Source: Octopus vulgaris (taxonomy: Eukaryota). From it: DNA of 64,000 bases. Below are positions 8,855-63,714 of the stretch, one piece after another. Position 1 is the first letter of the stretch. Each line of letters opens with the position of its first letter. Both the position numbers and the translations under genes were made by a program. The DNA lies in the NCBI GenBank assembly GCA_951406725.2, contig OX597827.1:1178001-1242000 (forward strand), given 5' to 3'. The notes beneath the pieces are model-generated. The model had not been told where the DNA came from and searched no databases. It was given only the letters and a program-made list of their open reading frames with translations.

Positions 8855-9060
8855 CTGACAGCGTGTGTACCGTTGGCGATTTTTTTCCTCCATCTTCTCT
8901 TCTTTGGATCTTTCCTTTTCCTATGTTTCTGACGAAGAGCTCCACTCAAAACGTTAAACCCTCCTTCTTTCCTTCCTTCCCGAGCGTCCAATAATACTAT
9001 ATTTGTTCCACATCCTCGTGTTGTTGTGTTTTCTCTGTGTTTTCCTGTTTGGATTAACTT
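8855..9060 (+). mobile_element. (TA)n-flanked short element with a minimal hammerhead motif; probable Penelope-like terminal fragment
   Basis: Homologous to the reverse complement of 48359-48556; both are flanked by TA tracts. Confidence 0.75.
8925..8959 (+). ncRNA. Minimal type I hammerhead ribozyme motif, G12 read as A
   Basis: gttt CTGACGA agagc-tcc-actc AAAA cg TT aaac; stem I gttt/aaac, palindromic ACGT stem III. Confidence 0.65.
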
Positions 9061-9343
9061 CATATATATATTTATGGGTTCTTTATGGTCACTCAAATAT
9101 ACAATCTGTATTAACAAACATATTCTAGTTATATTTTTGTATGCATTTAAGTAGCTTTTTTATAAAGGGGTTCATCATATGCTCATCTTTATACACATAT
9201 ATACACAATATTATCTAAATTATCTAAATCCACATGTGTCTGGTAATGGTTTTTTTTTTATCATTCAAACAGGATTCTACATGTTAATGATATTTTCCAT
9301 ATCTATAAATCCTGCCCCAAATGAAATTGCACTTCATTTTTGA

Positions 9344-9423
9344 AGCTCTGACGAAGTTATAAAGTGATACACAAGCTCTTAACTAGGAATGCATTGCACT
9401 ATATGCAGAAACAGCAGTAAGCT
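9344..9423 (+). ncRNA. Type I hammerhead ribozyme motif with long stem II
   Basis: agct CTGACGA(9348-9354) ... GAAA(9408-9411) cagcag TA agct. Confidence 0.7.
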
Positions 9424-9540
9424 AATGAAGTTCATTATATAATTTCTAGTTCCCTTGTCATTTATATAATCTCTTATTCTGCTCTTTATTCAGCTAACAC
9501 TATTCTACCCACCCTCTCTCTCACATACACACACACACAA

Positions 9541-15000: not shown

Positions 15001-15797
15001 TTCTATGTTTGACTTTTGCTTTATATTTGTACAAGTTGGCTCCAAGTCTCACCCAGAGACCTCAAGAGACAACAGGTTGGAAGTTCACGTTGTTGTTATG
15101 CCTAGTGTGCCATATATTTGGTTGTTTTTTGTGTTGTACTGGTGGATGTCTAAAAGAAAAAAAAAATAATGTTTGTTTTAAACCTTGAGATTACATAGAA
15201 AGTATTTTGCGTAGGATATGAGTAGTTCCCATGAGCACTATCTTTTGAATTTCTGCCATTTTGGGGTTTCCTGGTATCTGAGTTAGGTAGCTATCAGCCC
15301 CTTTTGCTATCATTCCCAGGGCACCTATGACAACAGGTATTGTTTTAGTCTTCAGGTTCCACATTTTGCTGATTTCTATTTCAAGATCTTTATATTTGCT
15401 CAGTTTTTGGTAGATCTTGACAGATACGTTTATATCGATTGGGACAGTCATATCAATGAGGAGGCATGTTCTTTGTTTGAAGTCTTTCAATATGATGTCT
15501 GGCCTATTTGCATCTATCTTTCTGTCAGTTTGAATGGTGAAGTTCCAGAGGAGTGAGATGTGGTCATTTTCAAGCACTGGGGGTGGTTTGTGTTCCCACC
15601 AGTTATTTTCATGGGGCAAATCCAGGTTTTTGCAGATTACCCAGTGAATATATTGTGCAGCTCTATCGTGCCTGTTGAGATACTCTGTAGGTGCTAGAAG
15701 ACTGCACTTGGAGACCACATGATCAATGGTTTCACTTTGTTGCTGGCATACACGATACGTTGGACTGCTGCTGATCTTTAATATGTTGGCCTGGTGT
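15001..15797 (-). mobile_element. 5'-truncated R4/Dong-clade element: CCHC knuckle, restriction-like endonuclease, 3' UTR (15001-15190), ending in (TAA)n
   Basis: ORF 15191-15919: YRVCQQQSETIDHVVSKC, RHD, RPDIIL...LIDMTVP, K..KYKDL. The first ~40 codons of the track ORF come from an unrelated adjacent repeat. Confidence 0.92.
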
Positions 15798-16199
15798 TGC
15801 AGTAGTGACTTGTTTTTCTTAAGTTTATGTAGAACCACCCTAAATACTGTGTCCTTCCCTGAGTAATAGGTCATTCGAGGAAATTTAGCTGCTATTTTTA
15901 GCAGGTCAAGAAACCACATAGAAACATCCTCACTATCTTATAATCATCAATGTTGTTGTTACTGTTGTTGTTAAACTCCAGAACAGTGCTGATTGAGCAG
16001 AAGGTCAATCAAAGCCTCTCAAACCATGACCACCCTCTCTTATGTCCAAATCTGACGACCGTCCACTTAGTAGTCACCATGATGCCGAATTTGTTGTAAG
16101 CTCCATGTTTTTACTTCTTCCTCTACTATACAAATTCATCATTTATTAGATATTTCAGTGTCACAGAGGATTGAGTCTTAGGAAGAATCACATGCACCA

Positions 16200-20187: not shown

Positions 20188-20795
20188 TTTTGTGTCTAAT
20201 TTTTCATGTTGAAGAGCAGTAAAACATAAAAACCCCTGCTTTCTATACATAAATTATTCAATGAAGAATTTTCGTATAAATATTTTCTACAGACATATTT
20301 CTGTATATTGCTTATTATTGCTGTCTTGTTCAAATCGGCACACAGCACCATTTAAAGCACCAACATTTATTGCTATTCTACATCACTTACAATAATAATT
20401 TTTCTTCCACTTTGTCCGAGCAGTTCTTCTTATAGACCACCAGTGGGAAAATACAAAAACAAACAGTTATACATATGTAAATATAATCACTATCCATTTG
20501 TTCCTCTCTCTACAATTACACAATGTCTATTCCCAATACCATACCTTAAAGATTATCATACACAATAACATAGGTTTATAGCTTTATCTTTTATTGTGTG
20601 GCAAATTCATCCAACCACATATTCATATTTCACACACACACACATATTGATATTTTGCTTAGGTATAGTGATATTAATAACATGGTGTTAGAAATCAATA
20701 TAGATATGCTACAGAATGAAGTGTCAGCTGAGTACAGAGCTGCAGTAAGAAATTAGAATGACAAAGGAATAAGCAATTATGTTATGAACTTTGTT

Positions 20796-20876
20796 AGCTT
20801 ACAGCTGTTTCTCCTCTAAGATGCAATGCACTCATAGGTGAATGCTTGAGTATCAGCTCATAGCTTCATCAGAGAT
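20796..20876 (-). ncRNA. Type I hammerhead ribozyme motif with long stem II and intact core boxes
   Basis: Minus strand: atct CTGATGA agctatgag...cttagagga GAAA cagctg TA agct. Confidence 0.72.
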
Positions 20877-21229
20877 TCAAACATGTTACACACACACACA
20901 CACACACACATACACACACACACACACACACATATATATTTCAATATGGATCAAATAATTTACAAGTAAAATATTTGCGAAGATATCATTGACTCTATTA
21001 TTATCTAGTGAAACAATGGGCTTCTTTCGGTTTCCGTCTACCAAATCCACTCACAAAGCTTTGGTTGGCCTGAGGCTATAGTAGAAGACACTTGCCCAAG
21101 GTGCCACGCAGTGGGACTGAACCCGGATATACAGAAACCCAGGCAGAGGGAAATAAACAGATACGTAGATAGACAAACTTATGGCTGGTAGAGGAGGAAA
21201 AAGAGATAAAGATAGACAGGTGGATATAG

Positions 21230-41711: not shown

Positions 41712-42219
41712 TAAACACACTGGCAGAAGTTCATTTTATGTATATCACAAGCTTAAAAGCTGCACCCCATGCTGACTTTTTAAGTTAGCTCCTATTGAAG
41801 GCTAATTGGGCCTGTGCCCCAAAACTGAAGAGAGCAATAATAATAAAGCATTTATTGGTACCCTACCAATATGGTATTACCCTACCAATTTAGTATCAAT
41901 TTAAATTCAGTTTAAATGAAAAGCTTTTAAGTTCACAAGTTTTTGGAGTTCTTTTAAAATTTGAATTTTCAACTGTTAGTATATAATGAATCCCCATCCA
42001 AGATTTCAAGGACCAAATGAAGGGCAGATTTTTAATACTAGTGATGTTGCTATACAGCTTGCAAGGCAACTGTTGCCATACAGCTTGTAAAAACTGAGGA
42101 GGGAAGCAGGGTACATTCAACTATCATTGAAAATCTGTTTCAATAGACTCTCTCGCACCCATGAAAGCATAGAAAATAATTGGACATTAAATACACACAC
42201 ACACACACACACATACAGA

Positions 42220-42587
42220 TGTGGCTGTGTTAAGAGGCTTGCTTCTCAACCATATGGTTTTGGGTTCAGTCCCATTCTGTGGCACCTTGGACAAGTGTCT
42301 TCTACTTTAGCTTCGGGCTGACCAAAGCCTTGTATATTTGGTAGACAGAACCTGAAAGAAGGCCATTATATATATAGATATATATGTCTGTGTTTGTCCC
42401 CCCATCACCATTTGACAACCAGTGTTCATGTGTTTATGTGCCAGTATCTTAGCAGTTCGGCAAAAGAGTCTGATAGAGTAAGTACTAGGCTTAAGAGATA
42501 AGTCGTTGGCCTGATTTGTTCAACTAAAACCCTTCAGGGCAGTGCAATAGCATGGCCACAATCAAATAATGGAAACAAGTAAAAAGA
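42220..42587 (+). mobile_element. SINE S1
   Basis: Colinear with 8475-8837. Confidence 0.85.
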
Positions 42588-42675: not shown

Positions 42676-42754
42676 GCTTTGAGGAAGCCATAGGATGTTG
42701 CACAAGCACTCAGATCTGAGTGCACTGTTTCCTACAGCAGAAACAGCTGTAAGC
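42676..42754 (+). ncRNA. Type I hammerhead motif with long stem II, C3 mutated
   Basis: gct TTGAGGA a gccatagga...gcactca gatc tgagtgc...tcctacagc a GAAA cagctg TA agc. Confidence 0.65.
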
Positions 42755-43177
42755 CAATGAACTTGATTACATGACTCCAGTTCTCTTATATATATATATA
42801 TACATACACGCATATATATGTATACATGTATGTGTGTGTGTACATATATAAACACACACACACACATGTATCTATGTGAGTGTCTGTGTAGATGAATATA
42901 TATATGAATAAATGGATTTATATAACAAAAGGCATAAATAATGGACTTTATAAATCATTCGTCCAACCATGGATTTACAAAGTCAACTGATGATAGACTC
43001 AACTTCAGATCTTGCTTCTGGATTACCTGTGGTTCAATGACAGTGACTAAACCTTTTGTTAGCCCATTCTATTTGTATCAGCAGAGAGATTAAGTAGTAT
43101 TTTACCGAGATTACTAATCCCTTATTAATTAACTCTTTGTATATATGTGTGTGTATGTTGTTTTATATATATATGTA

Positions 43178-56728: not shown

Positions 56729-57826
56729 TTTATTATAAATATGTAAATAAGTAAATATATGCATATATATGTGTGTGTATGCCTGTCTGTATGTCTGTAT
56801 GTCTGTGGTGGTGATGATATGAGGGCATAGGAGATGAAGTATAGATAGTCATATCAAACATTTCTGGTCACCCACACTGCTGCATCCTGTTTGGAAAGCC
56901 ATGAGGTGGATTGCACTTGTAATTCATTAGGCATGAATTTATCACACACTGTGTCACACTGATTCTCCTTAAGAATCACATTAAGTGTATGCATGTCTGT
57001 GGAATTCTCAGCCACTTATATACTAACACAATGAGTAGATCATTCTACTGACTAAATAATTGCAACACATAACAGTAAAACTAATTTTAATCTGCTTATT
57101 GATTGATTTGTACTTCACCCAGAGATTTTTCTTACAGCTGTTTCCTTTAAAGGAGTAACAACTGAATTTCTATAGTATGTAAATGAGGAAGCATCTCTTA
57201 CTTACTTAGGCCCTTTGTTCTTGATGGAGCATAGGCCATTGACAAGTTTTCACTCTTTTTTTTACATTGGGTTGTTTTGTTTTTCTGCTTCTCTCCAGTT
57301 AGAGCCCTGCTTTTTCAGCCCTGTTTCCTGTCTCAACTTCCTTTCGAATTTGAGTTACGATGTCACTGGTCCCAAGCTGTATTGGTCTTTACTTTTGACT
57401 TGAGCTACATCAGCGACATGGAGAGGAGAAGCTGGTATGCATGAGTGACTATTGGTCTTCCATAAACAACCTTGCCCAGACTTGTGCCTCATAGGAAAAC
57501 TCTCTCGGTGCAATCCCATGGTCATTCATGATTGAAGGGGGTCTTTACTCTTTTTACAAAAAAAAGAACCCATTTTACGTAATGTAATCCTGGATACTAT
57601 TCGTGAATAAGACAGGGTGGTCACAGAAGGAGTACTTTGATGAGGGCTAACATCTGAATCTATACAGTATTTATACAATATGAGGTATAGACACACAAAC
57701 TATATTTGAACCTAGAACCAGCTTTGTAAATGATTGCTTCTCTTCAATTTAACACGACTCTTCTGCTGTTTACGAATTATTTCTGTAAAGTTTCCTTTCT
57801 ACTGCATGCTTTCATCTTTAATGCAG

Positions 57827-63664: not shown

Positions 63665-63714
63665 TCTTACAGCTGTTTCTAGGATATTAATTAATAATAT
63701 CCTTTCATTGGAGA
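63665..63714 (-). ncRNA. Type I hammerhead-like motif with a degenerate first box, in a TA-flanked element (~63598-63835)
   Basis: Minus strand: tct CCAATGA a aggatatt-attaatt-aatatcct a GAAA cagctg TA aga. Confidence 0.6.

What the first reader, a model, noticed from the sequence alone, without database searches (positions are those of the whole stretch)
20796..20876. Dispersed hammerhead ribozyme family with long stem II and an A.A core junction (best-preserved core)
Seen: three homologous loci (9344-9423 +, 20796-20876 -, 42676-42754 +) read stem I-CTGANGA-A-[~50 nt]-A-GAAA-CAGCTG-TA-stem I', and share a downstream flank (agctaa..aagttcat). My by-eye consensus folds the insert into gctatagg/cctatagc capped by gcactca/tgagtgc. 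Established: Penelope-like elements and non-LTR retrozymes carry type I hammerheads with short palindromic stem III that act as dimers; the canonical core has a G10.1-C11.1 pair. Inference: this is a non-autonomous ribozyme-bearing element with a non-canonical A.A junction that standard descriptors would miss. I cannot tell whether it has been described.
Basis: partly seen in the sequence, partly recalled or inferred. Interest (0 to 1): 0.75.

Follow-up and report, generated by a model that had tools for sequence, protein, structure and literature searches.

The report
Decayed Penelope-element hammerhead ribozyme copies
These are three broken copies of what is likely the tail end of a Penelope-type jumping gene, carrying a hammerhead-shaped RNA predicted to cut itself; its odd A·A junction is one of several junction states in related repeats of this genome and was already allowed for in published work, so this is a new example of a known kind.

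Summary
The three loci are real homologs. They are 5'-truncated copies of a dispersed ~430-nt repeat (1,771 first-look candidates) lying 10-12% from their subfamily consensus. All three window copies are damaged, including the 'best-preserved' one, whose G-C pair next to the junction is G·G.

The family inserts like a Penelope-like element (PLE): divergent inverted arms in 25 of 110 loci, no tandem, two 3'-end classes, microsatellite flanks. The type I hammerhead layout is well supported across 27 sequence clusters (stem I 3.26/4 pairs vs 1.64 shuffled; palindromic loop III 15/27 vs 2/103 in phage hits).

A·A is not special. Related families use A·C, A·G, A-U, U·U, U·A and C·A there. The 2014 PLE descriptor allows extra N10 and N11 and shows one A..AGAAA row; U·U is common in Hydra-clade PLEs. 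Searches miss this family mainly because of its 52-nt stem II.

A family with the same layout flanks a Hydra-clade ORF; this family's own parent was not found. Cleavage and expression are untested. Earlier notes of this scan read other DNA of this genome the same way.

The parts
20651..20885 (-). 5'-truncated copy of the family, long-end type (hammerhead region, short-end point near 20745, ~95-nt tail); flanked by (TG)n/(TA)n
   Evidence: 90.6% to the family majority sequence over 235 nt; flanks read
20873..20876 (-). stem I 5' strand, ATCT (family AGCT or GGCT); 3 of 4 pairs with 20796-20799
20866..20872 (-). core C3-A9, CTGATGA
20865..20865 (-). extra A (N10), the 5' side of the A·A junction
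   Evidence: A in 81 of 84 family copies
20813..20864 (-). 52-nt stem II; in this copy the pair next to the junction is G·G instead of G-C
20812..20812 (-). extra A (N11), the 3' side of the junction; A 62, G 15, T 6, C 1 in 84 copies
20800..20811 (-). GAAA, palindromic stem III and GUA; predicted cut between 20800 and 20799
   Evidence: the 8-mer is self-complementary, duplex -11.1 vs hairpin +2.4 kcal/mol
20796..20799 (-). stem I 3' strand, AGCT
20651..20745 (-). PLE-type 3' tail; in most long copies it ends just after a conserved ATG (likely the parent's ORF start), changed to ATA here
   Evidence: the tail reading follows PMC11167929 passages
9317..9506 (+). second copy; core 9348-9354, GAAA 9408-9411, loop III AGCA (palindrome broken), 1-nt deletion in stem II
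   Evidence: 80.9%
42676..42816 (+). third copy; C3 changed to T at 42679, proximal stem II damaged, GAAA 42740-42743
   Evidence: 79.4% over 42676-42772, to 42816

Best explanation
The three loci are decayed, 5'-truncated copies of a dispersed ~430-nt repeat that is likely the 3' end (pseudo-LTR plus tail) of a Penelope-like retrotransposon, probably of the Hydra clade, whose master RNA is predicted to have carried a type I hammerhead that would cut after GUA as a dimer. Shown: the repeat, its decay, its insertion pattern, the multi-family hammerhead layout and the free N·N junction. Inferred: a PLE RT/GIY-YIG protein copied this RNA end into TA/TG microsatellites from two start points (short end, long end), often as two divergent arms; two ribozyme copies pair through the self-complementary 8-mer to form helix III; the N·N position next to the core is tolerated as U·U is in other hammerheads; cutting is probably weak or protein-assisted, as reported for another PLE. 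The window copies are most likely inactive fossils.
For: Insertion pattern: 25 of 110 unique loci have divergent 5'-5' inverted arms; none is convergent or head-to-tail. 3' ends cluster at about 320-345 and 420-434, and 71 of 106 such ends are followed by a microsatellite within 40 nt. These are the PLE hallmarks in PMC8557442 (passages) and PMC11167929 (passages). Layout: genome-wide patterns give 581, 2,332, 1,224, 742 and 255 hits against reversed-pattern controls of 2, 12, 3, 15 and 2. In 27 clusters from 107 held motifs, stem I has 3.26/4 pairs vs 1.64 shuffled, stem II pairs 2-4 have 2.11/3 vs 1.22 (0 of 5,000 shuffles reach either), and loop III is palindromic in 15 of 27. The similar pattern in 103 phage hits gives 1.62, 1.16 and 2 of 103. 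Subfamily majority sequences fold at z -3.1 with stem II pair probabilities of at least 0.98. Monomer hammerhead -26.6 vs monomer MFE -34.8; double hammerhead -69.1 vs twice the monomer MFE -69.6 kcal/mol. A family with the same layout (A·C; its A·A sister clusters with it) flanks an RT plus C-terminal GIY-YIG frame with DKT, CxCx5C, CxxC and CxH (L138), the Hydra features of PMC8557442 section 11. Hydra hammerheads in that paper's File S2 often have U·U at this position and several have an ACAG..CTGT stem III.
Against: No ORF was linked to this family. None of 30 tail-selected loci continues into an ORF, no sequence beyond the 5' microsatellite is shared among 30 loci chosen for the 5' part except other repeats, and the one apparent link (L082) was rejected. 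No cleavage or RNA data were obtained. The predicted MFE of both monomer and dimer is a slipped fold in which the stem I 5' strand pairs with the loop III palindrome (cofold -72.6 vs double hammerhead -69.1). Only 32 of 84 copies keep the core and 5 of 84 keep core, stems and palindrome. U4 is C in 20 of 84 copies. Twenty of the regions behind the 27 clusters were hand-picked from listings in which stem II and loop III (not stem I) were visible, and one cluster (L221) reads better as the usual bulged-A form.
Confidence: 0.75

Rival explanations
1. The family is a non-coding retrozyme: a ~480-nt unit (5' part, hammerhead, tail, internal microsatellite) processed from tandem transcripts into a circular RNA and mobilised in trans by PLE proteins.
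For: No ORF found. Both ends fade into microsatellite, so a circular unit is conceivable. Earlier notes report ~485-495-nt tandem long-stem-II units elsewhere in this genome (unchecked).
Against: No head-to-tail or permuted same-strand pair in 110 loci; the 6 same-strand pairs are collinear pieces of single copies. No same-strand tail lies upstream in 30 loci chosen for the 5' part. The tail ends a few codons after a conserved ATG, and the autonomous L138 element also has TG/TA tracts in its 3' UTR.
Confidence: 0.15
2. A·A is a specific, selected core variant that defines a distinct catalytic subtype.
For: A·A is the commonest state in this family (62 of 84; 58 of 62) and is in 18 of 27 clusters, although those clusters came mostly from a pattern that asked for A and a purine.
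Against: A sister family has A·C in a young family with an ORF; A-U gives 255 hits and Y·N 742 hits. A G-bearing, CpG-decaying subgroup exists in this family (CG 6, TG 7 of 54). PMC4209133 allows extra N10 and N11 and lists one A..AGAAA row.
Confidence: 0.06
3. The hammerhead-like fold no longer cut in this lineage; it served only as a protein-binding or folding element, or was a passive relic.
For: Slipped folds beat the active fold in prediction; U4C occurs in part of subfamily A2; hammerhead cleavage was dispensable for insertion in vitro in another PLE (PMC11167929 passages).
Against: Core letters, an NUH site, stem I and palindromic loop III are kept across many unrelated stem sequences, which is expected if catalysis is selected in active masters.
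Confidence: 0.1

Closest known systems
Hammerheads of metazoan Penelope-like elements (Cervera and De la Pena 2014, PMC4209133; read: main text parts 1-2 of 4 and all 3 parts of supplementary file 2; file 1 not searchable)
   Same: Type I; short stem I; extra nucleotide after A9; palindromic stem III for dimers; scattered truncated copies, some in opposite-strand pairs; descriptor allows an extra N11; one of 56 rows has A..AGAAA (by row order in the extracted text the Cotesia bracovirus PLE; the order is my reading of a PDF text layer).
   Different: Stem II here is 52 nt with bulges, against 3-8 bp and a short loop; the extra N11 is the rule in these families rather than 1 of 56; stem III has a 6-nt palindrome.
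Hydra-clade PLEs (Craig et al. 2021, PMC8557442; read: passages, section 11, supplement part 2 of 59 and search hits)
   Same: (TA)n insertion, inverted 5' copies, tail; hammerheads often with an unpaired N·N (U·U) at the base of stem II and, in several, an ACAG..CTGT stem III; the same-layout L138 element has the Hydra protein motifs. PLE-X1_sMoe in File S2 has a ~53-nt stem II, marked as deviating, and PLE-X1_cBra has C·A.
   Different: No A·A row and no long stem II among the Hydra rows of File S2; this family is not among the searched sequences (two short motifs each gave 0 hits); no ORF of this family was found.
U10.1·U11.1 hammerheads (Perreault et al. 2011, PMC3088659, passages; axolotl HHR_Amex2, PMC7229834, passages)
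   Same: Natural hammerheads with a mismatch at the base of stem II.
   Different: U·U, short stem II; U·U is described there as the best tolerated mismatch, so A·A may be slower.
Small PLE hammerhead variants of Lunse et al. 2017 (PMC5785218; not held, nothing seen; known only from citations in PMC6765202 and PMC11014351)
   Same: Cited for dimer cleavage and for an 11-nucleotide core without a fixed G-C in stem II.
   Different: Could not be compared; it may already describe A·N junctions.
Animal non-LTR retrozymes (PMC7229834, passages; bioRxiv 10.64898/2026.07.22.740005, part 1 of 5)
   Same: Type I hammerhead, no ORF in the copies, proposed PLE origin.
   Different: Defined by tandem units; none seen in 110 loci.

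Membership tests
Type I hammerhead ribozyme | CUGANGA and GAAA core with an NUH site | tested here: met
   Family majority has all; intact in 32 of 84 copies; 2 of 3 window copies
Type I hammerhead ribozyme | Three helices, stem I open, supported by sequence variation | tested here: met
   Across 27 clusters vs phage control; within this family only one-sided changes were seen at the four pairs checked
Type I hammerhead ribozyme | G10.1-C11.1 pair directly next to the core | tested here: not met
   An N·N position lies between core and G-C; published PLE and other hammerheads share this departure
Type I hammerhead ribozyme | Self-cleavage at the NUH site | not testable with these tools
   Only contigs were available, which show no RNA ends
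Rfam hammerhead families | Covariance model match | tested here: not met
   No hammerhead among 8 matches at E<=10 on L004 or among the 150 of 487 window rows listed
Penelope-like element | 5' truncation, inverted 5'-adjacent copies, optional 3' tail, microsatellite targets | tested here: met
Penelope-like element | Hammerhead near the 3' end | tested here: met
   Predicted cut at position 285, short end near 340, long end 434
Penelope-like element | Own ORF with PLE RT and GIY-YIG | tested here: inconclusive
   Not found for this family; only best-scoring subsets of the genome could be examined
Hydra-clade PLE | RWK-like, DKT, CxCx5C, CxxC, CxH motifs in the ORF | tested here: inconclusive
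   Met for the same-layout L138 element (RWA, DKT, CxCx5C, CxxC, CxH); not testable for this family without its ORF
Non-LTR retrozyme | Head-to-tail tandem units, each with a hammerhead | tested here: not met
   0 of 110 loci
Non-LTR retrozyme | Circular RNA | not testable with these tools
   No raw RNA reads
Naiad PLE | Similarity to published cephalopod Naiad 3' ends | tested here: inconclusive
   Four short family motifs gave 0 hits in the supplement, where line wraps could hide them; the visible 3' end of Naiad_Obim is unlike this family

The most novel reading that the evidence does not exclude
This genome's PLE families form a natural library of active hammerheads in which the junction next to the core takes almost any N·N state and stem II has grown into a 35-60-nt domain; that domain would be a binding platform by which the element's own protein switches the ribozyme from a slipped inactive fold to the cutting dimer.
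Probability: 0.2. Interest if true: 0.55.

Novelty: new member of a known kind. Interest (0 to 1): 0.25.

Why it matters
Modestly. It shows that hammerhead censuses capped at short stem II miss thousands of PLE ends in this genome: 3,910 hits summed over the four long-stem patterns, which can overlap slightly. It also supplies natural A·A, A·C, A·G and U·U sister ribozymes, some on a young element with an ORF, for testing how free the 10.1/11.1 position is and whether PLE proteins assist cleavage. The window copies themselves are fossils.

Tried and rejected
1. Parent search by walking upstream: the family ends at a TG/TA tract; sharing further upstream is other repeats.

2. L082, where a Hydra-type GIY-YIG frame runs into a family copy on one strand: rejected. 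Its relatives end in their own 3' end, and none of 29 other loci has this family downstream on the same strand. Hydra-type frames near inverted copies (L146, L147, L179) belong to different families and are read as co-insertion at shared targets.

3. Tail-based search: 0 of 30 loci continue into an ORF.

4. This is weak and biased by BLAST selection, so inconclusive; the copies decay nearly neutrally.

5. Naiad 'half-core' link: no support.

6. Expression: one run guessed to be RNA has a contig over 20500-20712 only; four small-share runs laid nothing on 20660-20880. No evidence either way.

7. Pfam gave no PLE family even for the L138 frames and one weak zf-RVT hit among 10 of the 36 window frames. 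A strict scan for intact hammerheads in the window printed none.

8. Literature: eight searches found no paper on this family or on cephalopod long-stem-II hammerheads. Lunse et al. 2017 was not held, and file 1 of PMC4209133 and most of the PMC8557442 supplement were not read; these may bear on novelty.

9. No covariance model was built: within-family variation is decay, and the cross-family test was done directly.

Full report
Observation. The three loci are at the stated coordinates and are homologous. Each has a core-like heptamer, an A, a 51-53-nt insert, an A, GAAA, a six-base stem III region and TA, followed by a shared flank. No Rfam hammerhead appears among the listed window rows or on a near-consensus copy.

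The family. The genome is 2.8 Gb in 227 contigs; I take it as octopus-like only from recalled resemblance of its repeats and from earlier notes, not from a test. The 181-nt query gave 1,771 first-look candidates, of which 40 were scored. Walking outwards defines about 430 nt, with a 5' limit at a TG/TA tract and variable 5' truncation. Of 110 unique loci, 25 have two divergent arms joined at their 5' ends, and none is convergent or head-to-tail. 3' ends fall in a short class (about 320-345) and a long class (420-434), and 71 of 106 such ends are followed by a microsatellite. In most two-armed loci one arm is short and one long. The long end stops a few codons after a conserved ATG. PMC8557442 lists truncation, inverted 5' copies, tails and microsatellite targets as PLE traits. 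PMC11167929 explains the tail by two reverse-transcription start sites. Two subfamilies lie 10.3% (n=29) and 12.2% (n=54) from their majority sequences, so the family is old.

Is it a hammerhead? Copy-level conservation is a poor test for dead copies: core 0.919 vs rest 0.885, p 0.02, with selection bias. The better test is across families. Patterns that fix only the core, the G and C of stem II and the C..GU of stem III give 581 hits (A·purine, long stem II, excluding this family's second stem base), 2,332 (C before GAAA), 1,224 (short stem II), 742 (pyrimidine after A9) and 255 (T before GAAA), against controls of 2, 12, 3, 15 and 2. From 107 motifs held as loci, 27 clusters were formed. Stem I, which the patterns do not touch, has 3.26 of 4 pairs against 1.64 when shuffled. 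Stem II pairs 2-4 have 2.11 of 3 against 1.22, and loop III is palindromic in 15 of 27 with many different palindromes. Phage hits to a similar pattern give 1.62, 1.16 and 2 of 103. Twenty regions were hand-picked for diversity, with stem II and loop III visible to me, so stem I is the cleanest figure. The layout is therefore real.

The junction. Within this family the base before GAAA is A 62, G 15, T 6, C 1 of 84, with a G-bearing subgroup that shows CpG decay. A young family has A·C and clusters with an A·A sister, with a U-A to C-G change in stem II. Other families show A-U, U·U, U·A, U·G and C·A. So the junction is a free N·N, and A·A is one state. My patterns fixed the following G-C, so they cannot show that it is required. 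One search also includes ordinary bulged-A forms such as L221.

Precedent. PMC4209133 calls the extra base after A9 usual, its descriptor allows an extra N11, and one of 56 rows has AGAAA after an extra A. File S2 of PMC8557442 lists many Hydra-clade hammerheads with U·U, one plant PLE with C·A and one with a ~53-nt stem II. PMC3088659 and PMC7229834 report natural U·U. The published descriptor misses this family because of stem II length and the six-base stem III, not because of A·A.

Which element? Spaced pairs of the A·C family enclose an RT and C-terminal GIY-YIG frame with Hydra motifs and a long 3' UTR holding TG/TA tracts (L137, L138). That ties the layout to Hydra-clade PLEs and would explain why this family's copies begin at a microsatellite. 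The family's own parent was not found. One apparent link was tested and rejected, and a tail search found no continuing ORF in 30 loci. The clade is therefore inferred.

Mechanism. As a monomer the active fold is 8 kcal/mol above the MFE, in which the stem I 5' strand slips onto the loop III palindrome. As a double hammerhead it is level with two monomers and 3.5 kcal/mol above the slipped dimer. This fits dimer-dependent, weak or protein-assisted cleavage after GUA, as reported for other PLE hammerheads, but nothing here shows cleavage. No RNA evidence was obtained.

Verdict. A real hammerhead-type motif in fossil 3' ends of a probable Hydra-clade PLE; a new member of a known kind. Notes on other DNA of this genome reached the same general reading; they are unchecked, and I used two as leads for the tandem and end-class tests. 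Interest 0.25.

Noticed in passing
window 8925-8958 +: Remnant of a short bulged-A PLE-type hammerhead of another family (core at 8929; GAAA changed to AAAA); similar motifs occur in flanks of L066, L089 and L168.
   Followed up: no
window 57130-57145 - and 63665-63680 -: Only the GAAA-palindrome-GUA half, resembling the short-stem-II family; no matching 5' half upstream.
   Followed up: partly
L138 292-5045 (G000:C1:13055800-13061300) and L137: Young Hydra-clade PLE with long-stem-II A·C hammerheads at both ends, RT and EN in different frames in these copies, and a 1.9-kb 3' UTR; near-identical motif copies fill most rows listed. Best natural candidate for cleavage assays.
   Followed up: partly
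family alignment position 26: U4 is C in 20 of 84 copies, with a CpG-decay pattern pointing to a U4C master in part of subfamily A2.
   Followed up: partly
family majority fold: Stem I and loop III share the same palindrome in this family, giving a slipped inactive fold; a two-hairpin fold lies 5-6 kcal/mol higher and is the MFE in L004 and L052. Other families do not share this coincidence.
   Followed up: partly
L183, L185, L188, L196: A separate old Hydra-type family with its own decayed 3' hammerhead-like end; L082 carries this family's copy right after that end.
   Followed up: partly
window 21013-21130 - and about 42215-42370 +: Copies of a very abundant short repeat (summed depth above 10 million), SINE-like by recall.
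   Followed up: no
window 15194-15937 -: 248-aa frame with a weak zf-RVT match (E 0.0003, below the Pfam cut-off), likely a LINE remnant.
   Followed up: no
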